Source: an uncultured Planctomycetia bacterium
GTDB taxonomy: Bacteria > Omnitrophota > Gorgyraeia > Tantalellales > Tantalellaceae
Direction of reading: 5' to 3'
Assembly: GCA_964572255.1 (NCBI GenBank)
Contig: CAZNEE010000002.1
Coordinates: 36,103 to 100,102, forward strand
Length of the DNA: 64,000 nt
Each line of letters opens with the position of its first letter. The stretch's first letter is position 1. Below are positions 38,163 to 64,000 of this stretch, one piece after another. The notes under the pieces were generated by a model. The model was not told where the DNA came from. It worked only from the letters and a program-made list of their open reading frames with translations, and made no database searches. Made by a program: the position numbers and the translations under genes.

Positions 38163-38196
38163 ATAAAAAACCCATGCAAGCGCATGGGTTTAAATA
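38163..38196 (-). terminator. Intrinsic terminator that forms the expression platform of the TPP riboswitch.
   Basis: Minus-strand RNA CCCAUGC-GCUU-GCAUGGG followed by UUUUUUAUUU. It lies directly between the aptamer and the thiE ATG. Confidence 0.7.
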
Positions 38197-38199
38197 CTT

Positions 38200-38300
38200 T
38201 TTCTATCTCCCTACGCTGGCATTACCCAGATCAGGTTATACAGGTCTTCCGCTCGAGCGGAACTCTCAGGGCGTCGCACGCCCTCCCTGGATAAATATGT
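38200..38300 (-). promoter_or_regulatory. TPP (THI-box) riboswitch aptamer upstream of thiE-thiS-thiG-thiH-thiF.
   Basis: The minus-strand RNA contains the canonical CUGAGA motif, and ACCUGAUCUGGGUAAUGCCAGCGUAGGGA, which matches the THI-element consensus. Confidence 0.9.
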
Positions 38301-51691: not shown

Positions 51692-53521
51692 TTACTTTAT
51701 CGCAGACTCTTCAGACCCCTGCATTTCCGGCCCGACATCCGCGGCAACAGTCCTCTTTTCCACTTCTTTAGATCTCCACATTTTTCTTATTCTTGCGATC
51801 TCTGTAGGCAACTGATCTTCGAAGTTTATAGATAGATGGAATCTTGACTCAGCTCTTTCGGTAATGGGCTTGTTCCCGAGAACAAATCCCCATTCGCATC
51901 TTACCACAGCCTGATTGAATAGTTTGACTCTTATGCCCGGGCCTACACTTGCGAAAGTAGCTTCTCTTTTCTCAGTGCTTGTGTTCAATACTCCACGCCT
52001 TCTACCATGAGCCCAATCAAAGAAAACTACGCCTGTGATCTCTTCTTTGAGCGGCCTTTCGCCGTAAGGAAGTATGAAATTGTCGGGAATAAAAAAGGCC
52101 GGGATAAGAAGCTCTGCACTTGCGAGAATCGCGTTATCAGCCATGAAATCGCCGTAAGGATAACCTCTTACAGAATCTATACCGCCCATCGGAAATTCTT
52201 CCAATGTCGACAGTTTTTCTGAAGCTATCTGGCTTTTAAATTTAAACACACCATCAACCCCCCACATAAGAGGTCTTCTGTGGGTTATCCCGGAGTTAAA
52301 TTTAGTGAAGTTGTTGTCTGCCTGTCTTGTAGTGGGAACGCCACCGGGATCATTACTGCGAGCTCCCAGTCCGTTAATGCCTTGGGATATCTCCGGATAC
52401 AAATAAGTGATACCGCCAAAGCCTTTATGGATAAGGTTCGCTCCGAGCCTCAATATTCTTAAGCGGTCACGGCTTGTTGTCCCTATAGACTGTGTTGTCG
52501 TTTTATCCTTAGCGTCTAGACCAAAATATATTTCTCCAAGGTAGTCAGCTTTATTGAAAATATCCTGATAGAGAAAAACGCTGGTATTACGAACAGATGA
52601 GTTTATCCCGAAAGGTTCGTAATTCATCTTAGGAGACGACTTGGTGTAACTGTGACCGTACATCAGTGACGTCCCGAAATTCGTAAAAGGTATCCTGTGA
52701 AAGCCATATACAGACTGGAAATGCCTTCCGAATGTATACCCGGCTATTGCCGTATCGTCTACGAACAAAAAATTGTTATCACGTATCCCAAACCCGAGTC
52801 TTTCTGTTCCAGTCTGAACCGCGCCTTCCCTATCAAAAGTAGCCAGCATATGTATCGGGAATTTTGTGTCCGCCTTTAAGATTACATCGGTGGTTTCGGG
52901 CTCTGCGCCTGCGTGAAGGACAGCCTTGACCTCTCGGTCGGGATTTTTGCTCATCAGCTGAAGGTTGCGTGAAAGCTTGTCATAACTGAGAACTTCGCCT
53001 TTACGGATGTTCCAATAATTAGTAAGTCTTTCTTTATCAAACCAGTTATGATCTTCAACTTCAAGTGCTCCCATTTTGGCTTCGACCACGCGCAGCATAA
53101 CAACGCCGTCTTTTACGTCCTGTGGAGGAACGAAACATGCGGCGATAATACCTCTTTTTAAGTATTCCCTTTCGATCTGTCTTGCCAGTATGTTCAGCTC
53201 CCCAAAAGTAACTTCTCTATTCTCGTACTGCTCTAAGATCGAACGGAATTCATCCGGCGAAAAACTTTCCACGCCGACCAGTTCTATTTTTTTGATGAAA
53301 AATTTCGGGCCTTCCGGTACTTCCGGCTTTTCCTCTTCCTCGATCTCAGGCGCCTTTGGCACGACCCTCATTTCCTTCTCGACCCTTTCACGTATCGCAC
53401 GGTCGGCTTCCCTTACTGCCTGGTCCGGAGCCGGCTGAGAATACGCGAAAGAAGCGGGAAGCATCAAAACGAAAACAACTAATAAACTTGCCAGCTTCAT
53501 AGTTTTTCTCCTTGTTATCAT
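51692..53521 (-). CDS. Two-partner-secretion outer-membrane transporter (TpsB; ShlB/FhaC/HecB family).
   Basis: Signal peptide. POTRA-type segment (FFIKKIELVGVESFSPDEFRSIL...GELNILARQIEREY). 16-strand barrel region. C-terminal aromatic residue. Confidence 0.85.
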   Translation of the reverse strand: MITRRKTMKLASLLVVFVLMLPASFAYSQPAPDQAVREADRAIRERVEKEMRVVPKAPEIEEEEKPEVPEGPKFFIKKIELVGVESFSPDEFRSILEQYENREVTFGELNILARQIEREYLKRGIIAACFVPPQDVKDGVVMLRVVEAKMGALEVEDHNWFDKERLTNYWNIRKGEVLSYDKLSRNLQLMSKNPDREVKAVLHAGAEPETTDVILKADTKFPIHMLATFDREGAVQTGTERLGFGIRDNNFLFVDDTAIAGYTFGRHFQSVYGFHRIPFTNFGTSLMYGHSYTKSSPKMNYEPFGINSSVRNTSVFLYQDIFNKADYLGEIYFGLDAKDKTTTQSIGTTSRDRLRILRLGANLIHKGFGGITYLYPEISQGINGLGARSNDPGGVPTTRQADNNFTKFNSGITHRRPLMWGVDGVFKFKSQIASEKLSTLEEFPMGGIDSVRGYPYGDFMADNAILASAELLIPAFFIPDNFILPYGERPLKEEITGVVFFDWAHGRRRGVLNTSTEKREATFASVGPGIRVKLFNQAVVRCEWGFVLGNKPITERAESRFHLSINFEDQLPTEIARIRKMWRSKEVEKRTVAADVGPEMQGSEESAIK

Positions 53522-53652: not shown

Positions 53653-55251
53653 TTACTTTGGATATGAATAAAAACGAACGGGAGAGTTGTATGGTCCGAT
53701 TATTAAAAGCCATGCTTTTCGGCCTTTGAAATATTTCAACAATTTCCGGTTGTTTTCCTGATCCATCTCGCGGGCCCATACAATACTGGATCTGTCTATA
53801 TCGGCCTCATTATAAACCCATTCATCGCGGGGATCGTGGCCCTCCACATAACGAACGATGACCAGATGATCTCCTCCCTCTTTTTTCAATCCTTTTACAA
53901 GCTCTGTTATCTGTATATTTTGATAATGTTTCCTGAGATACTTCTGCGAAGGGAGATCGGTGAATTTCCTGACAAATAATCCGATGCATATTATCAGGAT
54001 CAAACTTACAATATATTTCCCAATATAATTCCGGCTTATTCGCACACGGGATATTACACGTAATCCCTGCATAATAAGCAAAAATACAAGACAAACTATG
54101 GGCGCCGTATAGTATGTATTAAAAAATGTTGAAAAGATAGTAGCCACTAAATAAATTAAAATCGTAAAGCACGCAAAACGCAGCCATCGATCACGGAATA
54201 TCCAAAACAATGCACATATAATAGGAATTCCTAAAATAACGCTGCCGAAAAATGTCCACATCGTTTTGAGTTTCCATATAGTCGTGCCCGTAAAGCCTTC
54301 CGGTGATAAATATCTTTCATATCGTTTCATCCTTAAATATCTTTGAAAATCAGAAATGACCTTATGGTTGTAAGTCCGGTTCAGTCTTGGTTCCTGCCAT
54401 ATAAAATGAGGTGCAATGTCATAAGTTTCTTGATGTACCTGATAAGATGTGAGGAATGCATTCCCAGTAACTCGATAATTATAATAACCCATAGCAGCAA
54501 ATATAATAATGATCACCGTTGCAATGGGCGTTATCGCAGTATTAAAAATTTCTTTGAATTTACCTTTTGTGGCTCTTTGTATTATAAATACAATTAACAC
54601 CACAAGAGCTGGTGCACAAACTACAAAGCCCTCCCATGGCCTGCTATTCGCCATAACAGCCAAACCTAATGCAAGAACAAGTGAGATCTTAAAATCAGGC
54701 TTTCTGATCAAGCGCCGCCATGCACCAAAAAATAAAGCGCCGCCAAAAGCAGCAACAGCGCCACCCATATAACTTTGACCCCAGTAACTTGCTATTCCAA
54801 GATATAGATGAAATATTGAGATCAATCCCCCTATTAACGCCCACCTGGCAGGAATCCATGCCTGCAGCATCCAGGTTATTGCCGCGCACATGAGCGCCAT
54901 ACTTAACCAAACGCCAACAATAGGATATCCCGTAAGAACCTGCCCCAAAGCAAGAAAAAGGCCCTGCCCCGGAGGGAACTTGGAAGCATAGGTCGGCTGC
55001 TGATTAATATGAAAACTTTCAAAATGGACCCACATAGGGTGAGTCGGATTAGTCAAGCGCCCTTGACTAAATGTATCGGCAGCCAATAGATAGCTGTGCT
55101 CATCAGTAAAATATGGTTCCGGAACTCCTTTAGTAAGAGTGATGATCGCGCTTCCGGCAAATGCGAGAACAAAAACGAGAATAACCGAAGCCGTCCTGCG
55201 CCTGGCAAAACGTCCGAATTGACGCCAAATCATATGAGGAAAATTAATCAT
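53653..55251 (-). CDS. GT-C fold polyprenyl-phosphate-sugar-dependent glycosyltransferase (ArnT GT83 / PMT GT39-like).
   Basis: About 11-12 TM helices. DE motif in the first periplasmic loop (YFTDEHSY). 532 aa. AT-rich codon usage. Confidence 0.75.
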   Translation of the reverse strand: MINFPHMIWRQFGRFARRRTASVILVFVLAFAGSAIITLTKGVPEPYFTDEHSYLLAADTFSQGRLTNPTHPMWVHFESFHINQQPTYASKFPPGQGLFLALGQVLTGYPIVGVWLSMALMCAAITWMLQAWIPARWALIGGLISIFHLYLGIASYWGQSYMGGAVAAFGGALFFGAWRRLIRKPDFKISLVLALGLAVMANSRPWEGFVVCAPALVVLIVFIIQRATKGKFKEIFNTAITPIATVIIIIFAAMGYYNYRVTGNAFLTSYQVHQETYDIAPHFIWQEPRLNRTYNHKVISDFQRYLRMKRYERYLSPEGFTGTTIWKLKTMWTFFGSVILGIPIICALFWIFRDRWLRFACFTILIYLVATIFSTFFNTYYTAPIVCLVFLLIMQGLRVISRVRISRNYIGKYIVSLILIICIGLFVRKFTDLPSQKYLRKHYQNIQITELVKGLKKEGGDHLVIVRYVEGHDPRDEWVYNEADIDRSSIVWAREMDQENNRKLLKYFKGRKAWLLIIGPYNSPVRFYSYPK

Positions 55252-56146
55252 AGCCTCTTTTAAAGTTTTTCGGTAACACCTCGCTCACAGGACGTGCCTT
55301 AAACCCCAGATCCTTCTGAGCCTCAGACGGATCAAGATCAGCATCCTGAATTATGCCGGCTATCATCTGCGGCCTGAGCGGAGGGTGCTTCATGGAAATT
55401 TTCATAAAAAAAGCAATAAAATAACATAACCAGGCCGGCAGGCGGATTATCGGTTTATTTGACATGCCCATCAACTTCAGGCAAAGGCGCGTGAAATCAA
55501 GTATCGATATGACTTCACTTCCGCTAAAGTTATAAATTTTCCCGTATGCGTTTTTATTCCCGTACACCGCCAAAAGCCCTTCAGCTATGTCGTCTACATG
55601 AACTGGTCTTTTTTTAGCTTCACCCTTACCGATAAACGGAACTATGGGGAACTTTTTCAAATAATCCAGATAATTGTTGAACTCTTCCCCTCCAGTATCG
55701 CTGTAAACCAGTGTGGGCCTTATAACAGTATAGTTAAGACCGGACGCTCTTACGATCTCTTCGGCTTTCCATTTTGACAGGTTGTATGCCGCTTTCTTCG
55801 GATAAACAACGGAAGCGGATGAGATATACACGAAATGTTCAACGCCCGCATCTTTAGCCTCCTCAACAATATTCCTTGTCCCGTTAACATTCACTCTTTC
55901 GAACACGCCTTCATCCAAACTTAAAATAACAGCGGCTAAATGGTAAACAGTGGAAACTCCTTTACATATTCCTTTAATGTTCTCTTTATTTGATATGTCG
56001 CCGTACCGTACATCCACCCGCGCGTCTCTTTCAAGCGGCGTTCTGTCGGAAGGTAGGGCAAGAACACGGATCCTGTGCCCTTCTTTAAGCCACTCGTCAA
56101 CGAGTCTCGTCCCTATTACCCCGGTCCCGCCGGTTATAAGGATCAT
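55244..56146 (-). CDS. NAD(P)-dependent sugar epimerase/reductase (extended SDR).
   Basis: MILITGGTGVIG Rossmann motif. YxxxK in NLSKWKAEE. Confidence 0.8.
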   Translation of the reverse strand: MILITGGTGVIGTRLVDEWLKEGHRIRVLALPSDRTPLERDARVDVRYGDISNKENIKGICKGVSTVYHLAAVILSLDEGVFERVNVNGTRNIVEEAKDAGVEHFVYISSASVVYPKKAAYNLSKWKAEEIVRASGLNYTVIRPTLVYSDTGGEEFNNYLDYLKKFPIVPFIGKGEAKKRPVHVDDIAEGLLAVYGNKNAYGKIYNFSGSEVISILDFTRLCLKLMGMSNKPIIRLPAWLCYFIAFFMKISMKHPPLRPQMIAGIIQDADLDPSEAQKDLGFKARPVSEVLPKNFKRGYD

Positions 56147-56904
56147 TCGGAGCCTCCCTCATGCTCTTTACACAATCTCCGATAATGCCCTGAAAGATAT
56201 TTGAACATCACCCCTAATATCCTGAAACCATAAGTTATGGGATTAAGGTATGATACTTCATCGGCATAGCGCGTTGGTATCGGATGCTCTCCTATTCCCA
56301 GGCCAAGCGTTCTGGCGCATGCTATGACCTCGACATCGAAATCAAAACTTTCACTTAATCTATCAAATGGTATATTGTCAAGCGCTCTTCGGCTGTAAAA
56401 AATAAAACCGCTGTGATAATCTGTCAGCTTAAGCCGAAAAACAATGTTTTCGAAAAAGGTAAGGGCCCGGTTTGCAATAAACTTATATAACGGCATCTTG
56501 CCCGAAAGAGCCGTGCCTGAAGAGATGCGGGAACCCTGAAGAATATCGTACCCCTTTTTTTTCATTGTCTCAACGCAGGCAGGAATATATTCCGGAGGAT
56601 ACTGGCCGTCCGAATGAAGGCAAACAGCCGCGTCAGAACCGTCATCTCTAGATAGTTCAAGTCCCTTTTTGACGGCAACACCATATCCCCGGTTTTTATC
56701 AAAATGAACAGCCTTTATGGTGTCTATTCTCCGCGCAAGTCCATCAATTACCTTACGTGTATCGTCTTCGGAACCATCGTTTATGATCCATATCGACGCT
56801 ATATTTCCCCTTATATCTTCAGGAATACGGTTTATTACGTTTTCGATATGACGGGCAGCATTGTATGCGGGCATGAAAATGGATATTTTATTTTCAAGGG
56901 GCAT
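56143..56904 (-). CDS. GT2 polyprenyl-phosphate glycosyltransferase (ArnC/DPM1-like).
   Basis: ISIFMPAYN, INDGSEDDT and DGQYPPEY motifs of the GT2 family. 253 aa with no C-terminal TM helix. Confidence 0.8.
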   Translation of the reverse strand: MPLENKISIFMPAYNAARHIENVINRIPEDIRGNIASIWIINDGSEDDTRKVIDGLARRIDTIKAVHFDKNRGYGVAVKKGLELSRDDGSDAAVCLHSDGQYPPEYIPACVETMKKKGYDILQGSRISSGTALSGKMPLYKFIANRALTFFENIVFRLKLTDYHSGFIFYSRRALDNIPFDRLSESFDFDVEVIACARTLGLGIGEHPIPTRYADEVSYLNPITYGFRILGVMFKYLSGHYRRLCKEHEGGSE

Positions 56905-57991
56905 TTTCTTGTACGCCTTTTAGTTTATACTTCTCGACATAATAGGTTATGGTCTCGCGAAGGGTCTGTTCAAGATCGTATCTCGGTTCCCACCCGAGAA
57001 GATTGCGGACTTTCGAGAAATCCCCCACCCTTCTGTCGCTGTCCTGGTAACCTTCACCGTAAAACTCTTTTGATGAGACGTTCTCCGTGCGAAAAGAAGA
57101 GTCTTTCCCTTGAGGATAAACTTCCTTGTATATAGTTATCATCTGCTGGGCAAGATTTTTTATTGTGGTTTCATTGTGGGGGTTCCCTACATTAAAGATT
57201 TGCCCTTTCGCTTTTTCAGGTTTTTTTATCATCAGCTCAATAGCATCAACAGCATCTTCGATATAGGTAATGGTTCTCTTACTTTCTCCGCCGTCGACAA
57301 GCTGAAGAGGCCTGTCCAAAAGAAGGTCACCTATAAAACATGCCATAACCCTCGGCGTACCTTCACCTTCTATCCCGGGGATATAGTCCATTTCGGGCCC
57401 TATGAAATTAAAAGGGCGAATGATCGTATAATCAAGTTCTTTCTCAAAATTATACGCATAAATAATGCGTTCTAAAAGTTCCTTAGCGCATGCATAGATC
57501 CACCTCTGGATGCGAACCGGTCCGAGAACAAGGGGCGTAGTCTCTTCTTTAAGCAGGAAATAATCAAGATCTCCCTTTTCATCCTTATCCTTCAGGAAAC
57601 GTGAAAGAGTCATTCCGTAAACCTCGCAAGTAGAAAAATGCACCAGCCACTTCTTGTACTTGTGGCACATCTTCACAAGCTCCAGGGAATGCAAGAAATT
57701 GATCTCAACAACTTCTAATGGAATTTTATTGTAAAGAGCTGGATTACATAAAGCCGCAAGCGAGATCACACAATCACTTTTTTCAACATACTGGCGGAGC
57801 TTTTCACTGTCCTTGATATCGACATTATGATAAGAAAACCTTTCATGTCCCAGGAACTGCTTGATCTTCCTGTCATCTATATCTATGCCGCATATCTTAT
57901 AATTTCCGTCAACAAGAAAACGTTTCACAAGATGCGAGCCGATAAATCCTCCGCAGCCTACCATGCAGATTGTTTCCACTTTTTTACTCAT
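56894..57991 (-). CDS. UDP-glucuronate oxidative decarboxylase-like dehydrogenase (ArnA C-terminal-domain homolog).
   Basis: Strong similarity to the ArnA decarboxylase domain: VGCGGFIGSHLVKRFL...YKICGIDI, ISLAALCNPALY, FSTCEVYGM. Confidence 0.75.
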   Translation of the reverse strand: MSKKVETICMVGCGGFIGSHLVKRFLVDGNYKICGIDIDDRKIKQFLGHERFSYHNVDIKDSEKLRQYVEKSDCVISLAALCNPALYNKIPLEVVEINFLHSLELVKMCHKYKKWLVHFSTCEVYGMTLSRFLKDKDEKGDLDYFLLKEETTPLVLGPVRIQRWIYACAKELLERIIYAYNFEKELDYTIIRPFNFIGPEMDYIPGIEGEGTPRVMACFIGDLLLDRPLQLVDGGESKRTITYIEDAVDAIELMIKKPEKAKGQIFNVGNPHNETTIKNLAQQMITIYKEVYPQGKDSSFRTENVSSKEFYGEGYQDSDRRVGDFSKVRNLLGWEPRYDLEQTLRETITYYVEKYKLKGVQENAP

Positions 57992-58150: not shown

Positions 58151-61100
58151 TTAAAAGATCTGTGCAGTATTTCCTTCCACTTGCACTTCTCCTTTAAATG
58201 CGTCCGGATCGAATTTTTTCTTTTTCCCGGGGCCGAATCCAACTCCCTGAAGCTGGACAATATCGCTCATATCGTCACCCAAAGCAGCTATAGGTACCGG
58301 GAATTCAAGCATAGGAGCGTCAACGATCTTTGCATTCTGACCGCTGTCACTTTCCTGTGTCCAGTTCAGCTGCAGGAACGGTGCCTCGCCCGCGACCGGC
58401 GGTTCTGGAACCACGGGTGTGGGCGGTTCTTCCCCGCATATCCTGCATTCCCTGAGCATTGGAGGCGCGCCCTGGGGCGGCATCCAGATATTCTCAAAAT
58501 CCCAGCATGCAAATGTTGATTGCTGTTTCATTTGGGAATCATCCTTTGCATCGATCCCGCAAAGATCACCGCTATCGGAATCATCCAGCCCTGCATTATG
58601 TGTCGGCGTCTGCAGCCAATAGCAGGAAGAATACGGACCTCCATAGTCATAACCGACAAATCCGCCTGCGGAGCTGCTCGTTATCACTTCTCCCGTTGAA
58701 TAACAATTGGTCGTCGCTGTTCCGCCGCCGTTATACCCGCCGTTCTCATTAAGACCGAACAGTCCTCCTATAGCCCATCCACTTTGAACTGTCACATCCC
58801 CTGTAGCATAGCAATCCGCAACCGGAGTTCTGTCGTTATAACCTACCAATCCGCCAAAATAGGTGCCATCGCAACTGCCGAACACGTCCCCGGTAGCATA
58901 GGACCTGGTTATCTCGGAATTATATGTTTTGCCGACCAGTCCGCCGAATCTGTAAAGACAGCAGCATTCTTCCTCATGCTTTACATCCGCAGTTGAATGA
59001 GAACAATATATCTCAGAATCGTTAAGCCTTCCGACCAGTCCGCCGACGTTATACTCGCCTCTTACGACCCCTCCTGAGGAACATCCCAGGATCCGGCTTT
59101 CTTCCTGTACATCGCCTGCCAAAGCCCCTACATGCGTATCCCCTGTTATATCCGCATTTACAAGATCTACTTTTCCGACCGTAGCATCTACGAGAAGACC
59201 GAAAAGACCGACATTCTCTTCGTACGGCCTGTTTATGTAGAGGTTGCTTATAGTATAGCAGTCGCCGCAGAAAAATCCGGTGAACGGGCCGGTTTCATCG
59301 TCGTCACCCGTATTATCCCCGATGGGCTCAAATCCCAGATAGAACATTTGACCGTTCTGGCCGTTTTGTCCGTTTAGATCAAGGGAAGCTACACAATTAT
59401 AGCCGTACGGATTCCAGGTTTTGGTCGCGCTTGCGTCAATATCATTTGCCAGTTTGAAACTCGCATCAAGCGCGTATTTCATGAACTGTAGTTCATTCAC
59501 GTTGTGTATCAGGAAGTAGCATGCGTCAGGGCCTTCGCACCCTACTCCGCCGTCCGGCAGATGCACCAGCATGTCCTCCCATACAAGATGCGGATAGCTT
59601 CCGACAGTCCAAAGACCCAGAAAATCCCAGCCTTCAAAAGTTGCTTCCTGCTGCATCTCGGTGTTATTTTTCGCTGTGACCCCGGTAAGATCACCGGGAT
59701 CGCCGGAATCCTGCAGGCCTGCATTATGTGCCGGTGTCTGGAGCCAGTAGCATGAAGAATATGGCCCGCCGTAGTTTTCATAACCTACAAAACCTCCGAC
59801 ATTCCAGTTTCCGGTTACCTCTCCGGTAGAATAACATCTCGTTATATTGTAACTGGAAGAGGTATAGCCGTAACCTATAAAACCTCCGACATTATTATCA
59901 CCGTTAACATTTCCCTGTGCGTAACAATCCCGGATAGAAGTTTCATAATTATAGCCGATAAGCCCGCCTATTTCTCCTTGTGTGCAATCTTCATCAACAA
60001 GAGGGAATATTGTGCCTTCACTGCCGCTCTGGGCTGTTTGTCCTGGCGTGTTTATATTTCCTTTTGCATACGATCTGCGTATATCCGAATAACTGGCATG
60101 GCCGACAAGGCCTCCGACATCGTAATCGCCGAAAACCTCCCCGGTCGCACCGGAATGCCTGATATCGGATGAACCGAGAGAACCCACGAGCCCTCCGACG
60201 TACCTATATCCTTTCACCTTGCCCGTCGCATATGAACTCTCGACAGTTGAATCCTCACAATAACCCACTAGGCCCCCGCGATAATCGCGATCGCAATAAT
60301 ATGGATCATATCCTTCATAAACAACATTCGGCAGGACATCGCCCGTTGCGTGACAGCAGGTTATATCGCCGTATTCATTATAACCCACAAGGCCTCCGGC
60401 ATAATCCTGGTCAAAATACACATTCCCAATAGCATAACAATCTATTATAGGCGACGCATAATTATACCCTATAAGGCCTCCGGCATAATTCCCTCCATCC
60501 AACCACCGTGGGCCATACACGTCCCCTGTAGCATAAGAACGGATGATCGTACACATGGCTTCGTAGTTCTGCCCCACAAGGCCGCCTATATATTCTCCTC
60601 CGCGCACTTTGCCTGTTGCGTGGGAATCGGTGATCGTGCCTCCGTAATTATAACCTACCAATCCGCCGACCGCTTGAGCATAATCACCCAGGACCTCACC
60701 GGTAGCATAACAGTTTGTTATCGTTGATGAATTTTCATTACCGCCAACAAGGCCTCCAAGTCCAAATTGATAGTCATAACTCATGCCTTCAACTTTTCCC
60801 GTAGCATGAGAATCTGTGATAGAGGAACTTACATTACGACCCACGAGACCGCCGCCGTATTCTCCATACACTTCAACTGCGCCTGTGGCATAACAATTAA
60901 TGATCGTATCTTCAGCTTCAAAATTTCCTCCTACTAAGCCTCCTACGCAGTCATCGCCTGATACATCGCCCGAGGCATTTGAACCGGTAATTGTGGACCC
61001 TTCGTTATGCCCTATCAATCCTCCGACATAATCACCAGTAGAGCTTACATCTCCCTGAGCAGAACAATTTGTGATCGTGGATCCATCTTCATTATATCCT

Positions 61101-62818
61101 ATGAGTCCTCCAACATAATCAGCATTTCCTTCACCATAATCTCCAATGACCTCGGCATTAGTATGGACATTGGTTATGGGAGTATCTTCATTACGACCCA
61201 CCAAAGCTCCAACATATCTGCCGCCGGTTACATTTCCCTCTAATGTAAGATCTTTTATCCAGGCAGCCTCATCGGTTTGAGCGAATAACCCCACATAATA
61301 GGTAAAGGGCCTGTCGATAGTGAAATTACTTATGGTTTTATTGTTCCCGTCAAAACTTCCTTCAAAATCGCCTCCGATCGGCTCAAATCCCTGGCCGCCG
61401 TTCCAATCCTCTGTCGCAATCGCATCGATGTTATTAGCAAGCTTATAATGCGCATTATCATCGTCATCCACTGCCTGGAGTCCATTTATATCAAAGATCA
61501 AATATGGATCTCCCATGGTCCCTGCGCCCACTTCTCTAACTAACTCGGCATGATAATTTGAGCGGACCGTATCAACGCTGAAAGCTTTTGTGTTGTCTGA
61601 TTCATATTCTATATCAGCAGTATTTGAAGAGTTCAATTCCAAAAGCCCCACATTTGTTATATCCCCGTCAAGCGCTGAATCTTCTCCGGCAAATAATGTT
61701 AGATCAAAACCCCCGCCAGCAAGATCATTGCCCTCCATATCGATAAATCCGTCATTATCTGCATCGCTGTCCGCATTAAGCGTTGTATCGCCCGTCATGT
61801 TTACGTTACCGCCAAGTTCGATATCTTCCACATCATTGTACACACCCGCAATGCTGCCTGCCAGGGTGAGCGCACCATCAAGGTTTTCGAAAAGCGAATC
61901 ACCGACAACGGTCTTTCCGCCAAGCAAACACGATGCGCCTTTCTCAGTCAGAGTTTCAGCTTCCAAAGTCCCAAGGCTTACAACAGCTCCATCAGTATCG
62001 ATATTAACGGTATTTGCTCTTACGAATCCTTCCAAGTTGATAGCTTTAGTAAATATCTCACCGATGCTTTCCGCTTTTAAGATTACAACTCCGCCTTCGG
62101 CATCAATTGTGCCCGTACTTTTTATCTGATCAGTTATCGGGTTGCCTTCATAGTCTTTAATGCCAGAGGCAACTTTTTTATCTATAGCAACAGAGATAAG
62201 ACCACCACCAGAGATATCAAGTTTAACGGCATCACCGGATGCAAGAACTATCTTGCCGATAGGCGCTGTTATTATTCCCTTGTTTTCGATGGCGCCTGCG
62301 ATCAATACACCGAACCCGCCGTCATGGATCTTGATGTCTCCTTCGTTAAGCAATAACTTCTCAGCCTGATCTTCGGTAATCTTCTGAAAAAGATGATTAC
62401 CGCTTAAGAAATCAGAATTGAGTATATCCCGCGTAGACAGAATAAGACCCGCCGCATCGATATTAGCTGCAGGCCCCACATAAATGCCGGAAGGGTTAAC
62501 GAGAATAAATACACCGTTACAACTAAGTCCTCCCATTAACTGACTAGCGGAATCGCCCAACACCCTGTTGAGGATCTCGCTGTCAACGGACGGCAATTTT
62601 ACTACTACCGTTTCATTTTCCATGATGTCAAAAGACGAGTAATTGACAATAGCATTGTCACTCGCCTCGATGACCATGGTCGTCGGATCGGTATACTCGA
62701 TATTCGCCTCTCCGGATACCACCTCCTCGACATTGGGAAGCGGGTAGGTGTTGTACGTACACGTAAATGTAAGCACCAGCACCAGTGAAATCATTTTTGT
62801 TAATTTTGTGATCTTCAT
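58151..62818 (-). CDS. TpsA-type exoprotein: N-terminal TPS secretion domain followed by dozens of ~27-aa GLUG-like repeats in two large duplicated blocks.
   Basis: N-terminal TPS domain (ILNRVLGDSASQLMGGLSCNGVFILVNPSGIYVGPAANIDAAGLILSTRDI, NPNGI-like). Repeats NCYATG.V.G..YVGGLVG.N..S.ITDSHATGKV. Each block ends with SCYWLQTP.HNAGL.DS...TF.(G/C)WDF. GGAGGA Shine-Dalgarno. Confidence 0.8.
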   Translation of the reverse strand: MKITKLTKMISLVLVLTFTCTYNTYPLPNVEEVVSGEANIEYTDPTTMVIEASDNAIVNYSSFDIMENETVVVKLPSVDSEILNRVLGDSASQLMGGLSCNGVFILVNPSGIYVGPAANIDAAGLILSTRDILNSDFLSGNHLFQKITEDQAEKLLLNEGDIKIHDGGFGVLIAGAIENKGIITAPIGKIVLASGDAVKLDISGGGLISVAIDKKVASGIKDYEGNPITDQIKSTGTIDAEGGVVILKAESIGEIFTKAINLEGFVRANTVNIDTDGAVVSLGTLEAETLTEKGASCLLGGKTVVGDSLFENLDGALTLAGSIAGVYNDVEDIELGGNVNMTGDTTLNADSDADNDGFIDMEGNDLAGGGFDLTLFAGEDSALDGDITNVGLLELNSSNTADIEYESDNTKAFSVDTVRSNYHAELVREVGAGTMGDPYLIFDINGLQAVDDDDNAHYKLANNIDAIATEDWNGGQGFEPIGGDFEGSFDGNNKTISNFTIDRPFTYYVGLFAQTDEAAWIKDLTLEGNVTGGRYVGALVGRNEDTPITNVHTNAEVIGDYGEGNADYVGGLIGYNEDGSTITNCSAQGDVSSTGDYVGGLIGHNEGSTITGSNASGDVSGDDCVGGLVGGNFEAEDTIINCYATGAVEVYGEYGGGLVGRNVSSSITDSHATGKVEGMSYDYQFGLGGLVGGNENSSTITNCYATGEVLGDYAQAVGGLVGYNYGGTITDSHATGKVRGGEYIGGLVGQNYEAMCTIIRSYATGDVYGPRWLDGGNYAGGLIGYNYASPIIDCYAIGNVYFDQDYAGGLVGYNEYGDITCCHATGDVLPNVVYEGYDPYYCDRDYRGGLVGYCEDSTVESSYATGKVKGYRYVGGLVGSLGSSDIRHSGATGEVFGDYDVGGLVGHASYSDIRRSYAKGNINTPGQTAQSGSEGTIFPLVDEDCTQGEIGGLIGYNYETSIRDCYAQGNVNGDNNVGGFIGYGYTSSSYNITRCYSTGEVTGNWNVGGFVGYENYGGPYSSCYWLQTPAHNAGLQDSGDPGDLTGVTAKNNTEMQQEATFEGWDFLGLWTVGSYPHLVWEDMLVHLPDGGVGCEGPDACYFLIHNVNELQFMKYALDASFKLANDIDASATKTWNPYGYNCVASLDLNGQNGQNGQMFYLGFEPIGDNTGDDDETGPFTGFFCGDCYTISNLYINRPYEENVGLFGLLVDATVGKVDLVNADITGDTHVGALAGDVQEESRILGCSSGGVVRGEYNVGGLVGRLNDSEIYCSHSTADVKHEEECCCLYRFGGLVGKTYNSEITRSYATGDVFGSCDGTYFGGLVGYNDRTPVADCYATGDVTVQSGWAIGGLFGLNENGGYNGGGTATTNCYSTGEVITSSSAGGFVGYDYGGPYSSCYWLQTPTHNAGLDDSDSGDLCGIDAKDDSQMKQQSTFACWDFENIWMPPQGAPPMLRECRICGEEPPTPVVPEPPVAGEAPFLQLNWTQESDSGQNAKIVDAPMLEFPVPIAALGDDMSDIVQLQGVGFGPGKKKKFDPDAFKGEVQVEGNTAQIF

Positions 62819-62848
62819 CTCTATCCTCCTGTTTAATTAAAAACAAAT

Positions 62849-62885
62849 AAAAAAAACCCATAGCCAAAATGACTATGGGTTTTTA
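62849..62885 (-). promoter_or_regulatory. Terminator-like hairpin inside the TpsA 5' leader (possible attenuator).
   Basis: AAAAAAAACCCATAG-ccaaaatga-CTATGGGTTTTT, about 25 nt upstream of the TpsA Shine-Dalgarno/ATG. A-tract and T-tract on both sides. Confidence 0.45.
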
Positions 62886-63446
62886 AACTTAATACCAAAG
62901 TATATTTTTAAAGCTAAAACTATTTAGCTCTTCTAAACATAATAATCTCTGTAATAAAAATAATTGTTTCATTCTCTCACCTTCGGTAACTGACTGCCCT
63001 GGCCCTAATGGCTTTAGGCTCTTTAGTTTTGCGCCCCTTGTTTTCACAAGGTTTGCCTTTATCGAGCAAGAGCTCGATAAAGCTGCTGAATTATAAAAAA
63101 GCGATTTCTTTCTATCTTTTGTATCTACTAAAAGTATATCATATTTTACTTAAATGTAAAGATTTGCAACTATTTTTTTATATTTTTCTTAATTTTGTTT
63201 TTTTTAACAATTATCTATAACATCTTCACTTCCGCGAAAAAGAACTATACTTGCAAGCCTTTATAAGCCAAAGGCTTTTGAAAAGAGAGTAGTTAGAACC
63301 CTAACGAAATTTTTAAAAAAAGCTAACTTTTTTTAAAAAAATTTTTTGTTGCGATATTTTTTGACTTTTCCTTTGCATGTCTATTTTTTAAAAATCATTG
63401 ATACATAAATTTAGGTTAAGATATAAAATATCTACATATTTAGCTC

Positions 63447-63519: not shown

Positions 63520-63996
63520 ATGAAGAAGATAATCACTTTAATAACTATTATTTCCTTATTGTGTACTCCCTGCTTTGCTCAGGGATTAATGGGTATCCCT
63601 GCATCCGTTACGACGCCTACTGAGTTTGTATCGTGGCTGAAGGACGGATTTTATTATCATTTGGAAGCTAATGATGATTGGCAAAGCCCTGAAGAAACTA
63701 TTCGCTTCAAAAGCGGCGACTGCGAGGACTACGCCCTTTTGGCCTCCGCGTTCCTGTCAAATATCGGTTATACGGAAAATTACGTAATCATTGTTAAGTT
63801 CTCAGGATTATACACAAGACATGCCATATGCGTTTTTCGGGAAAAGAACGGCTCTTACAGTTTTATCTCTAACAAGAAAATGTTCCGGACAGGCCAAAAA
63901 AGCGTCAGATCCGCGATCAACAAATATTACCCGGATTGGGAAGAGATCACATTTTCAACTCACAGCAAGAAATACTTCAAGACAATCCATCGTTAA
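63520..63996 (+). CDS. Secreted transglutaminase-like cysteine-peptidase-fold protein (BTLCP-like).
   Basis: Signal peptide. GDCEDYALLASAFL core Cys motif and a downstream His (RHAICVF). 158 aa. Confidence 0.6.
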   Translation: MKKIITLITIISLLCTPCFAQGLMGIPASVTTPTEFVSWLKDGFYYHLEANDDWQSPEETIRFKSGDCEDYALLASAFLSNIGYTENYVIIVKFSGLYTRHAICVFREKNGSYSFISNKKMFRTGQKSVRSAINKYYPDWEEITFSTHSKKYFKTIHR

Positions 63997-64000
63997 TTTT

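What the first reader, a model, noticed from the sequence alone, without database searches (positions are those of the whole stretch)
58151..62818. TpsA cargo built from GLUG-like repeats with a large intragenic tandem duplication
After the TPS secretion domain, the protein is almost entirely ~27-30-aa repeats (..NCYATG.V.G..YVGGLVG.N..S.IT.SHATGKV..). They form two long blocks, each terminated by a near-identical ~60-aa segment (SCYWLQTP(A/T)HNAGL.DS..GDL.G..AK...M.Q..TF..WDF).

The duplication is visible at DNA level: about 58560-58680 is roughly 75% identical to about 59690-59810. GLUG repeats are known from IgA-protease-type surface proteins but not, as far as I know, as the passenger of a TPS system. 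The duplicated architecture suggests recent expansion and possible recombinational length variation.
Basis: seen in the sequence. Interest (0 to 1): 0.6.

Follow-up and report, generated by a model that had tools for sequence, protein, structure and literature searches.

The report
Riboswitch-preceded secreted GLUG beta-helix protein
The gene encodes a large secreted surface protein of an uncultured Omnitrophota bacterium, of a type already present in sequence databases, and its two-block repeat structure is an old duplication; the new point is that it and most of its relatives sit behind an RNA switch that senses the signalling molecule c-di-GMP.

Summary
The minus-strand ORF 62818..58151 encodes a 1,555-aa TpsA. 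It has a signal peptide, an HMW1/EtpA-type TPS domain, a beta stalk and two complete GLUG beta-helix modules (about 17 and 7 rungs). Each module has its own N-cap and C-cap. One DNA repeat is real: 59621-59797 vs 58496-58666, 75% identical.

TPS+GLUG proteins are common in databases: 26 of the 120 best hits, including named Proteobacteria. Multi-module relatives are frequent. The two modules are only 35-40% identical, and their synonymous sites sit at chance except in the ~180-nt C-cap patch. The longest exact repeat is 20 nt. I found no length variants.

The TpsB partner lies at 51692-53521. Four sugar-pathway genes separate it from tpsA here but not in relatives.

Outside the finding's coordinates, a c-di-GMP-I riboswitch (62982-63067, 76.5 bits) and a terminator lie in the tpsA leader. 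The same riboswitch precedes tpsA in 4 of 4 close relatives and in 25 of 41 evaluable Omnitrophota loci. In relatives the terminator arm is complementary to the aptamer, which implies an OFF switch. In this window that coupling is not visible.

Verdict: a new member of a known kind, of moderate interest.

The parts
63133..63160 (-). Promoter-like site (TTTACA, 16 nt, TG-TATACT) upstream of the riboswitch
   Evidence: Consensus scan, 10 of 12 matches with an extended -10 TG. This is a pattern match only.
62982..63067 (-). c-di-GMP-I riboswitch aptamer in the tpsA 5' leader
   Evidence: Rfam RF01051 scores 76.5 bits (gathering score 35), E 4e-15, over the full model 1-87. It is the only c-di-GMP-I match in the 64-kb window. 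The same family lies upstream of tpsA in L004-L007 and in 25 of 41 evaluable related loci.
62852..62884 (-). Intrinsic-terminator-like hairpin (15-bp stem, U-run) between the aptamer and the start codon
   Evidence: Found by the terminator scan. Hairpin energy is -18.7 kcal/mol. Its arm motif ACCCAUAG..CUAUGGGU is shared with the terminators of related leaders. It lies 97 nt after the aptamer, against 10-40 nt in most relatives.
58151..62818 (-). tpsA ORF, 1,555 aa. AGGAGG lies at 62825-62830 and the ATG at 62816-62818.
   Evidence: ORF list and translation. No credible ORF lies between the riboswitch and the ATG.
61895..62740 (-). TPS secretion domain (aa 27-308), HMW1/EtpA type, with an NPSGI motif and no NPNL motif
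   Evidence: Pfam and NCBIfam matches. phmmer to EtpA 8cpk_A gives E 2.9e-32 over aa 30-308. The AlphaFold model has pLDDT above 90. Foldseek top hits are HMW1 2odl (E 3.9e-17), EtpA, HxuA and FHA. Motif search.
61511..61894 (-). Conserved beta stalk (aa 309-436) between the TPS domain and the first GLUG module
   Evidence: Shared with 20 relatives at 31-51% identity. The model shows all-beta structure with high confidence to about aa 427.
59609..61510 (-). GLUG module A (aa 437-1070): N-cap, about 17 rungs, C-cap
   Evidence: Rung motifs and caps. Alignment to module B.
58481..59521 (-). GLUG module B (aa 1100-1446): N-cap, about 7 rungs, C-cap
   Evidence: The AlphaFold model has pLDDT above 90 across the module. 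Foldseek top five hits are IgA1 metalloproteases, probability 1.0. phmmer to 6xjb, 7jgj and 7uvk gives E 2.5e-10 to 8e-9.
59621..59797 (-). DNA repeat copy 1 (last rung and C-cap of module A, aa 1008-1066)
   Evidence: 75.1% identical over 177 nt to 58496-58666, E 4.6e-29. Excess of identical codons, P=0.011.
58496..58666 (-). DNA repeat copy 2 (last rung and C-cap of module B, aa 1385-1441)
58154..58480 (-). C-terminal tail (aa 1447-1555): proline-rich linker followed by ~80 aa of unknown nature
   Evidence: No homologue among the 120 hits. pLDDT below 50. No Pfam match.
51692..53521 (-). tpsB, an Omp85-family transporter of 609 aa
   Evidence: POTRA_2 (E 2e-18) and ShlB (E 1.2e-16), both above their cut-offs. 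It is the only TpsB in the window. Orthologues at 46-57% identity lie next to tpsA in L004, L005 and L006.
53653..57991 (-). Four-gene sugar-modification cluster lying between tpsA and tpsB. It is a neighbour and is not shown to be part of the system.
   Evidence: UDP-4-keto-pentose/UDP-xylose synthase (311 bits, cut-off 294), a polyprenyl-phosphate GT2, an SDR, and a 532-aa membrane protein with no match. The cluster is absent from this position in L004-L007.

Best explanation
The gene is the exoprotein (TpsA) of a complete two-partner (type Vb) secretion system. The host is an uncultured bacterium, most likely Candidatus Omnitrophota.

Inferred pathway, from the known TPS mechanism:
- The Sec signal peptide takes the protein to the periplasm.
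- The HMW1/EtpA-type TPS domain docks on the POTRA domains of TpsB (51692-53521).
- The chain is threaded out and folds on the surface into a long beta-helical fibre.

The fibre consists of the TPS domain, a ~130-aa stalk, two GLUG beta-helix modules of about 17 and 7 rungs, and an unstructured tail. Each module has its own N-cap and C-cap. The GLUG fold matches the NTD2 gating beta-helix of the M26 IgA1 proteases. No catalytic or toxin domain is present. The most likely role is therefore a surface fibre or adhesin; this is inferred, not shown.

The two modules are an old domain duplication of a kind common in this family. Only a ~180-nt patch over the last rung and C-cap was homogenised later, probably by gene conversion.

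Transcription starts upstream of a c-di-GMP-I riboswitch followed by an intrinsic terminator. tpsA output is therefore probably tied to c-di-GMP. A CHASE2-GGDEF cyclase and a FecR-domain protein encoded ~1.5-3.5 kb upstream, just beyond the window end, could supply that signal.

In relatives the terminator's 5' arm is complementary to the aptamer's P3 or P2 3' strand. There, c-di-GMP binding should favour termination, giving an OFF switch. In this window a 97-nt spacer has been inserted and that complementarity is lost. The direction of the switch here, and even whether it is still coupled, is unresolved.
For: TpsA identity:
- Pfam and NCBIfam matches above cut-off.
- EtpA, HxuA and HMW1 found by sequence and by fold.

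TpsB partner:
- POTRA_2 and ShlB domains.
- Orthologous TpsB genes lie next to tpsA in L004-L007.
- Gene order in L005 (tpsA, tpsB, carB, purF, a small ORF, icd, guaA) matches the window's order apart from carB and the sugar cluster inserted here.

GLUG beta-helix:
- 275.8 bits and 22 rungs.
- The module B model has pLDDT above 90, and its top five PDB hits are IgA1 proteases.
- NTD2 of those enzymes is described as a beta-helix gating domain (PMC9637739).

No enzyme or toxin signature: no HExxH, VENN or LPXTG motif and no further Pfam domain.

Old duplication.

Riboswitch:
- 76.5 bits against a gathering score of 35, on the same strand, 164 nt before the ATG.
- Terminator hairpin.
- Present before tpsA in 4 of 4 GLUG-type relatives and in 25 of 41 evaluable species-representative loci.
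- 22 of 23 leaders examined carry a terminator-like hairpin with a U-run after the aptamer.

OFF logic in relatives:
- Cognate aptamer/terminator-arm duplexes are more stable than shuffled pairings. Mean -11.1 vs -9.8 kcal/mol; 107 of 20,000 permutations reach the observed value.
- Compensatory pairs are seen in L050 and L054.

Cyclase: the neighbouring GGDEF protein has a GGEEI motif and an RxxD I-site. It recurs next to tpsA in L006 and L012.
Against: - Nothing here shows secretion, surface display or binding. 'Adhesin' rests on analogy with EtpA, HMW1 and FHA and on the absence of other domains.
- tpsB lies 4.6 kb away, behind four unrelated genes, and has its own promoter-like site. Co-regulation with tpsA is therefore not established.
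- In the window's own leader the terminator is predicted to form with probability ~0.91 whether or not the aptamer is enforced. Its 5' arm also shows no complementarity to the aptamer (z = 0.29). The riboswitch may be decoupled, under kinetic control, or working through a relay I could not establish.
- 16 of 41 related loci lack the riboswitch.
- The phylum assignment rests on the labels of best hits and on synteny, not on marker genes.
Confidence: 0.7

Rival explanations
1. One reading: a previously unseen kind of TPS cargo, produced by a recent large intragenic tandem duplication, whose repeats drive recombinational length variation.
For: There are two homologous blocks and a 177-nt DNA repeat at 75% identity. 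The C-caps are each other's closest relatives: 67% identical, against at most 47% to any cap in another protein. They show an excess of identical codons.
Against: - The architecture is present in 26 of the 120 best hits, across several phyla.
- The modules are only 35-40% identical, and synonymous sites sit at chance outside the C-cap.
- The N-caps resemble caps in other proteins (up to 52%) more than each other (39%).
- The longest exact repeat is 20 nt, and TRF finds no array.
- No length variants are on record.
Confidence: 0.08
2. The riboswitch is an ON switch here: c-di-GMP relieves termination and induces the protein, as in the Bacillus thuringiensis Bc2-cap system.
For: - This fits the usual rule that high c-di-GMP favours adhesion. 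That rule is my own knowledge.
- Bc2 is a c-di-GMP-I, terminator-based ON switch in front of a collagen adhesin (PMC4933901).
- The window's leader has lost the family's antiterminator pairing and gained a 97-nt spacer.
- In that spacer, the aptamer's 3' tail CCGAAGG can pair with CUUUGG just upstream of the terminator. Such a relay could invert the logic.
Against: - Equilibrium folding shows no dependence of the terminator on the state of the aptamer.
- The candidate antiterminator (ACUUUGG with CCAUAGU) is weak next to a 15-bp terminator stem.
- Relatives point to OFF logic.
Confidence: 0.3
3. The passenger is a secreted enzyme or enzyme scaffold, for example a polysaccharide-degrading beta-helix or a protease partner, and not an adhesin.
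For: Beta-helices are common scaffolds of polysaccharide lyases and hydrolases. Weak fold matches to polygalacturonases and lyases follow the IgA1 protease hits. In IgA1 proteases the GLUG helix is part of an enzyme.
Against: Those fold matches have E of 0.03 or worse and probability of 0.6 or less. No HExxH motif, M26 catalytic region or other catalytic Pfam domain is present. In IgA1 proteases the GLUG helix itself is a gating domain, not the catalytic one.
Confidence: 0.1
4. It is a contact-dependent inhibition (CdiA-like) toxin-delivery protein.
For: It is a TpsA/TpsB pair with a variable C-terminal end. The 109-aa tail has no homologue.
Against: No VENN or (E/Q)LYN pre-toxin motif, no toxin domain and no FHA-type repeats. 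The gene that follows tpsA is a sugar-nucleotide enzyme, not a small immunity gene. The tail is predicted to be disordered.
Confidence: 0.04

Closest known systems
EtpA (enterotoxigenic E. coli) and HMW1 (Haemophilus influenzae) TpsA adhesins
   Same: - They are the best sequence match (EtpA 8cpk_A, E 2.9e-32) and the best fold matches (HMW1 2odl, E 3.9e-17; EtpA, E 4.6e-16) for aa 27-~430.
- They share the same TPS subtype: an NPxGI motif and no NPNL motif.
- Each has a partner ShlB-type TpsB.
- Each has a beta-helical passenger.
   Different: - The passenger here is built from capped GLUG modules, not EtpA or HMW1 repeats.
- No HMW1C/EtpC-type glycosyltransferase is encoded here.
- tpsB is separated from tpsA by four genes.
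- The gene sits behind a c-di-GMP riboswitch.
NTD2 'gating' beta-helix of M26 IgA1 metalloproteases (S. pneumoniae 6xja/6xjb, G. haemolysans 7uvk/7uvl)
   Same: The GLUG repeats match by sequence (E 2.5e-10 to 8e-9) and by fold (top five Foldseek hits, probability 1.0). A sub-threshold Peptidase_M26_N match covers the N-cap.
   Different: There is no metalloprotease domain and no HExxH motif. There are two modules, the first about twice as long. The protein is exported by a TpsB in a diderm cell, not anchored by LPXTG or G5 domains in a Gram-positive wall.
Database TPS+GLUG proteins, for example NCBI 'GLUG motif-containing protein' of Candidatus Omnitrophota (P0003, P0005, P0006) and proteobacterial examples (P0015, P0042, P0044, P0069)
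   Same: Same Pfam pair, and the same arrangement of N-cap, rungs and C-cap. They carry 1-3 modules. The TPS domains are 47-79% identical among Omnitrophota relatives.
   Different: The closest relative, P0001, is 55% identical over aa 1-757 and then diverges. Cargo beyond the first module differs between relatives (YDG, MBG or nothing recognisable). None of these proteins has been studied experimentally, as far as the searchable literature shows.
c-di-GMP-I riboswitches in front of adhesin genes, e.g. Bc2-cap of Bacillus thuringiensis (PMC4933901)
   Same: A c-di-GMP-I aptamer in the 5' UTR of a surface-adhesin gene, with an expression platform based on an intrinsic terminator.
   Different: - Bc2 is an experimentally shown ON switch in a Firmicute, controlling a wall-anchored protein.
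- Here the cargo is a type Vb exoprotein in Omnitrophota.
- Relatives look like OFF switches.
- The window's own platform is atypical.

Membership tests
TpsA exoprotein of a two-partner (type Vb) secretion system | N-terminal Sec signal peptide | tested here: met
   By inspection only; no predictor was available. MKITKLTKMISLVLVLTFTCTYNTYP has a basic n-region followed by a hydrophobic core.
TpsA exoprotein of a two-partner (type Vb) secretion system | TPS secretion domain (beta-helix with the NPNGI-type motif) | tested here: met
   PF05860 77.9 bits (cut-off 33.5). TIGR01901 59.4 bits (cut-off 29.1). NPSGI at aa 108. EtpA by sequence, E 2.9e-32. The model matches the HMW1, EtpA, HxuA and FHA secretion domains.
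TpsA exoprotein of a two-partner (type Vb) secretion system | Cognate TpsB (POTRA domains plus ShlB/FhaC barrel) encoded nearby | tested here: met
   51692-53521 carries POTRA_2 and ShlB above cut-off. It is the only one in the window. It lies 4.6 kb downstream on the same strand. Its orthologues lie next to tpsA in relatives.
TpsA exoprotein of a two-partner (type Vb) secretion system | TpsB-dependent export | not testable with these tools
   Needs co-expression and fractionation.
GLUG beta-helix module (Pfam PF07581; M26 NTD2-like) | Repeated GLUG motif above the family threshold | tested here: met
   275.8 bits (cut-off 20.5), 14 stretches, 22 G[GA][LF]xG cores, median spacing 30 aa.
GLUG beta-helix module (Pfam PF07581; M26 NTD2-like) | Parallel beta-helix fold like IgA1 protease NTD2 | tested here: met
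   This is a predicted structure only. Module B has pLDDT above 90. The top five Foldseek hits are IgA1 proteases, E 1.4e-6 to 5e-4.
M26 IgA1-specific metalloprotease | Zinc metalloprotease domain with HExxH and a downstream Glu | tested here: not met
   No HExxH motif. No M26 catalytic domain. The NCBIfam ZmpA model scores 69 bits against a cut-off of 3000.
CdiA-type contact-dependent inhibition toxin | Pre-toxin motif (VENN or similar), C-terminal toxin domain and adjacent immunity gene | tested here: not met
   No VENN or (E/Q)LYN motif. No toxin Pfam domain. The downstream gene is a UDP-sugar enzyme.
c-di-GMP-I riboswitch (Rfam RF01051) | Aptamer matching the covariance model above the gathering score | tested here: met
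   76.5 bits against 35, over the full model. The GNRA loop and the conserved junction nucleotides align with the consensus.
c-di-GMP-I riboswitch (Rfam RF01051) | Cis position in the 5' leader of the regulated gene, with an expression platform | tested here: met
   Same strand, 164 nt before the ATG, with no intervening ORF. A terminator hairpin lies at 62852-62884.
c-di-GMP-I riboswitch (Rfam RF01051) | Ligand-dependent switching between alternative structures | tested here: inconclusive
   In relatives, the aptamer and the terminator arm are complementary, with compensatory changes. In the window no coupling is detectable by folding.
c-di-GMP-I riboswitch (Rfam RF01051) | Binding of c-di-GMP | not testable with these tools
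   Needs in-line probing or ITC.

The most novel reading that the evidence does not exclude
A widespread feature of Omnitrophota: a portable cassette of c-di-GMP-I riboswitch, terminator and TPS domain onto which different passengers are grafted (GLUG, YDG, LamG/DUF2341 and others). It is often linked to a local CHASE2-GGDEF/FecR sensor pair. In this reading an envelope signal is converted through c-di-GMP directly into display or withdrawal of surface fibres used by these ultra-small, possibly host-dependent cells to attach to partners. The window's copy would be a rewired variant: a 97-nt insertion, loss of the antiterminator, and possibly inverted logic.
Probability: 0.3. Interest if true: 0.6.

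Novelty: new member of a known kind. Interest (0 to 1): 0.4.

Why it matters
The gene is one more TPS+GLUG surface protein. Its repeat architecture is neither new nor recently expanded, so the original claim should be marked down.

The useful outcome is regulatory. A c-di-GMP-I riboswitch precedes this gene and about 60% of related tpsA genes in Omnitrophota. That phylum has no genetic system, and its lifestyle is thought to depend on attachment to other cells (PMC10066038).

I found no paper linking c-di-GMP riboswitches to two-partner secretion. The main Omnitrophota genomics paper mentions neither.

If confirmed, the link gives a testable handle on when these cells display their surface fibres. 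The test needs only an RNA, a ligand and a terminator assay. It would also add type Vb secretion to the outputs of riboswitch-mediated c-di-GMP control.

Tried and rejected
- Whole-protein self-BLASTP returned only the identity hit. Splitting the protein into the two blocks was needed.
- TRF found no tandem array in the gene, only three 9-nt micro-repeats.
- Literature searches for GLUG with two-partner secretion or filamentous hemagglutinin returned nothing. The few 'GLUG' papers are incidental mentions.
- Searches for c-di-GMP riboswitch with TPS or hemagglutinin gave no relevant paper.
- The C-terminal 109 aa have no homologue among the 120 hits and no confident structure.
- The 532-aa membrane protein has no Pfam, NCBIfam or PDB match even at permissive thresholds. 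I considered that the four-gene sugar cluster might glycosylate TpsA, by analogy with EtpC and HMW1C. I set this aside because the cluster is absent between tpsA and tpsB in all four relatives examined and its enzymes are of the polyprenyl-phosphate/Arn-like type.
- Weak Rfam matches in the leader (trpB motif, SNORA27, SSRC38) are far below their gathering scores and were treated as chance.
- Attempts to settle ON versus OFF for the window's own leader by MFE, truncated-transcript and constrained partition-function folding gave no dependence on the aptamer.
- The other assemblies carrying the gene are identical in DNA. They cannot test length variation.

Full report
**What is there.** The coordinates 58151-62818 hold one ORF on the minus strand, 1,555 aa long. 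AGGAGG lies 6 nt before the ATG at 62818. Pfam finds a TPS secretion domain at aa 47-275 (77.9 bits, cut-off 33.5). It also finds the GLUG motif (275.8 bits, cut-off 20.5, 14 stretches) and a sub-threshold Peptidase_M26_N match at aa 447-553. NCBIfam adds the adhes_NPXG domain.

A G[GA][LF]xG core occurs 22 times, with a median spacing of 30 aa.

**Anatomy.** The N-terminus looks like a Sec signal peptide.
- aa 27-308 match the solved secretion domains of EtpA (E 2.9e-32), HxuA and HMW1 by sequence.
- An AlphaFold model of aa 27-540, built with 14 relatives, is confident (pLDDT mostly above 90) and all-beta to about aa 427. Its best PDB matches are HMW1 (E 3.9e-17), EtpA, HxuA, FHA and HpmA.
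- The motif NPSGI is present and NPNL is absent. This is the HMW1/EtpA pattern.
- aa 309-436 form a stalk shared with 20 relatives.

Two modules of the same design follow.
- Each has an N-cap, of the form Y-L-I...L...Y-K-L-A-N-D-I-D-A...W-N...G-F-E-P-I-G...T-I-S-N-L-x-I-x-R-P...V-G-L-F-G.
- Each then has GLUG rungs and a C-cap (S-C-Y-W-L-Q-T-P...W-D-F..W).
- Module A spans aa 437-1070 with about 17 rungs. Module B spans aa 1100-1446 with about 7.
- A model of aa 1091-1555 gives a confident beta-helix for module B. Its top five PDB matches are the M26 IgA1 proteases, at probability 1.0. phmmer aligns the rungs to the same chains.
- In those enzymes the matching region, NTD2, is a beta-helix that gates the active site (PMC9637739).

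The last 109 aa have no homologue and no confident structure. There is no HExxH, VENN or LPXTG motif and no further domain.

**The duplication.** At DNA level the gene holds a single long repeat: 59621-59797 against 58496-58666, 75.1% over 177 nt, E 4.6e-29. Its 72-nt core is 83% identical. It covers only the last rung and the C-cap.

Taken whole, the modules are 35-40% identical in protein.
- The two C-caps are each other's nearest relatives: 67% identical, against at most 47% to any cap in 120 other proteins.
- The two N-caps are not: 39% to each other, and up to 52% to caps elsewhere.
- Identical codons at identical residues are in excess in the C-cap patch (23/38, 15.5 expected, P=0.011). 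They are at chance in the N-caps (15/41 vs 15.4) and in the preceding rungs (18/62 vs 20.1).

So the module duplication is old. A short patch was homogenised later, most simply by gene conversion, and has since diverged by 25%.

Tandem modules are a family habit: 33 of 68 relatives with a recognisable N-cap have two to four. The longest exact direct repeat in the gene is 20 nt. The two C-cap copies share at most 13 nt exactly. TRF finds no array.

I found no length variant. The 90% identity cluster contains only a truncated 493-aa fragment. The other assemblies that carry the gene are 100% identical in DNA over ~15 kb, so they are not independent samples. Recent expansion and recombinational length variation are therefore not supported. 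Population data to exclude them outright are lacking.

**Is GLUG as TPS cargo new?** No.
- 26 of the 120 best hits in the 5.8-billion-protein collection carry both PF05860 and PF07581. I re-scanned five of them independently.
- Most come from Candidatus Omnitrophota MAGs, where NCBI already names them 'GLUG motif-containing protein'.
- Others come from Desulfosarcina, Azospirillum doebereinerae, Altererythrobacter sp. B11 and an Oxalobacteraceae isolate.
- The closest relative, P0001, is 55% identical over aa 1-757 and then diverges.
- TPS domains are well conserved among Omnitrophota relatives (47-79% identity) while passengers vary. This is the usual TpsA pattern.
- No paper in the searchable library treats the combination. 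It is catalogued but unstudied.

**The partner and the neighbourhood.** The only TpsB in the window is 51692-53521 on the minus strand (POTRA_2 and ShlB). Orthologues at 46-57% identity lie beside tpsA in L004, L005 and L006, and a more distant one in L007.

L005 has the order tpsA, tpsB, carB, purF, a small ORF, icd, guaA. This matches the window's order apart from carB and the genes inserted here. Four genes sit between tpsA and tpsB in the window:
- a UDP-4-keto-pentose/UDP-xylose synthase (311 bits, above its cut-off of 294);
- a polyprenyl-phosphate-type GT2;
- an SDR;
- a 532-aa polytopic protein with no match anywhere.

None of the four relatives has this cluster there. I therefore treat it as an unrelated envelope-modification insertion and not as a TpsA glycosylation system.

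**The unexpected part: a c-di-GMP riboswitch.** The 700-nt region upstream of tpsA holds the following elements on the tpsA strand.
- A promoter-like site at 63160-63133.
- A c-di-GMP-I aptamer at 63067-62982: RF01051, 76.5 bits against a gathering score of 35, E 4e-15, over the full-length model.
- A 97-nt AT-rich spacer.
- A 15-bp hairpin with a U-run at 62884-62852.
- The ribosome-binding site. No plausible ORF intervenes.

The same riboswitch family lies just upstream of tpsA in all four GLUG-type relatives whose contigs I fetched.

I then fetched 54 loci from species-representative genomes with a TPS-domain profile. Nearly all are Omnitrophota MAGs. Of the 41 with at least 600 nt upstream, 25 have the riboswitch. 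One of these (L047) is the c-di-GMP-I-GGC variant.

These loci include tpsA genes with other passengers, such as a 4,717-aa LamG/DUF2341 protein (L011) and a YDG protein (L024). The association is therefore with the TPS family, not with GLUG.

No other c-di-GMP-I match occurs in the 64-kb window or in the ±10-kb flanks of L004-L007.

Just beyond the window's end, the same contig encodes a FecR-domain protein and a CHASE2-GGDEF protein with a GGEEI motif and an RxxD I-site. The same pair sits next to tpsA in L006 and L012. FecR alone is found in L034 and L037.

**How the switch probably works.**
- 22 of 23 leaders examined have a terminator-like hairpin with a U-run after the aptamer, usually 10-40 nt downstream. 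Many share the arm motif GACCCAUAG...CUAUGGGUU.
- In relatives the terminator's 5' arm is complementary to the aptamer's own P3 3' strand (CUAUGG), or in another group to the P2 3' strand (GGAUGGG).
- The duplexes are stronger than with shuffled aptamers in 8 of the 22 leaders with a terminator (z of -1.75 or lower).
- Cognate pairs beat non-cognate pairs: mean -11.1 vs -9.8 kcal/mol, with 107 of 20,000 permutations reaching the observed value.
- L050 (UGCUAUGG with CCAUAGCA) and L054 (GCCGUGG with CCACGGC) show compensatory changes.

This is the signature of an antiterminator that competes with the aptamer. Ligand binding should free the arm, let the terminator form and switch tpsA off. That step is inferred, not shown.

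The window's own leader does not fit.
- Its aptamer reads GGGCCAGGGCAGUC where relatives have GGCUAUGGcAGUC.
- The arm has no partner in the aptamer (z = 0.29).
- The terminator is predicted to form with probability ~0.91 whatever the state of the aptamer.
- A possible relay exists: the aptamer tail CCGAAGG can pair with CUUUGG just before the terminator. That could even invert the logic, as in the ON-type Bc2-cap switch of B. thuringiensis (PMC4933901). I cannot decide this from sequence.

**Comparison with what is known.**
- In function the system resembles the EtpA/HMW1/FHA class of TpsA adhesins, and it passes the membership tests for TpsA and for the GLUG beta-helix.
- It fails the tests for an M26 protease and for CdiA.
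- A c-di-GMP-I riboswitch in front of an adhesin gene has precedent (Bc2-cap).
- I found no report of one in front of a two-partner secretion gene.
- The main genomic study of Omnitrophota discusses adhesion through pili and giant ORFs. It mentions neither type V secretion nor c-di-GMP.

**Verdict.** The gene is a new member of a known kind. I set confidence at 0.7 for the overall account. It is high for the identity of the parts, moderate for the adhesin role, and low for the direction of the switch in this locus.

Noticed in passing
window 62982-63067 (-), with the terminator at 62852-62884 (-): A c-di-GMP-I riboswitch (76.5 bits) lies in the tpsA leader. It is conserved upstream of tpsA in 4 of 4 close relatives and in 25 of 41 evaluable Omnitrophota loci.
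   Followed up: yes
window 62885-62981 (-): A 97-nt AT-rich spacer separates the aptamer from the terminator; relatives have 10-40 nt. The aptamer has lost the CUAUGG segment that pairs with the terminator arm in relatives, although the arm keeps ACCCAUAGUC. The platform may be rewired or decoupled.
   Followed up: partly
L001 6431-8601 (same contig, about 1.5-3.5 kb upstream of tpsA, beyond window position 64000); also L006 13235-15379 and L012 102-2249: A FecR-domain protein and a CHASE2-GGDEF protein (GGEEI motif, RxxD I-site) recur next to riboswitch-bearing tpsA genes. They may be a local source of the c-di-GMP signal.
   Followed up: partly
window 63520-63996 (+): A small secreted transglutaminase-like protein is transcribed divergently from tpsA. 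It matches DUF553 (E 1.2e-9) and weakly matches Peptidase_C93/BTLCP, the LapG family, below its cut-off. It has a GDCEDYA motif. A homologue lies upstream of tpsA in L049. A LapG-like role in processing the surface protein is conceivable but untested.
   Followed up: partly
window 53653-57991 (-): An Arn-like four-gene cluster is inserted between tpsA and tpsB in this lineage only. It comprises a UDP-4-keto-pentose/UDP-xylose synthase, a polyprenyl-phosphate GT2, an SDR and a 532-aa polytopic protein. The 532-aa protein has no Pfam, NCBIfam or PDB match.
   Followed up: partly
window 38191-38299 (-): TPP riboswitch (RF00059, 79.9 bits against a gathering score of 54.3).
   Followed up: no
L006 8806-8890 and L014 369-453: The junction of these aptamers reads AAAAGCAGG where the consensus has AAaGGCAAA. 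From my own knowledge, the position equivalent to G20 of Vc2 may be an A here, as in cGAMP-sensing GEMM-Ib variants. I did not verify this.
   Followed up: no
L047 2446-2539: One related tpsA leader carries the c-di-GMP-I-GGC variant (RF03167, 62.2 bits) and not the standard class I aptamer.
   Followed up: no
L005 1-8568 (= L011): The same Omnitrophota contig holds a second riboswitch-preceded tpsA. It encodes 4,717 aa with alternating DUF2341 and Laminin_G_3 domains. It lies next to a 1,417-aa protein with Peptidase_C39 and PT-TG domains.
   Followed up: no
window 58151-62818 (-), protein level: The exported protein contains 35 cysteines (2.3%), including CCC at aa 1285-1287. Many sit at the same rung position (NCYATG, SCYW). 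This is unusual for a surface protein and may reflect an anoxic habitat or disulfide stapling of rungs.
   Followed up: no
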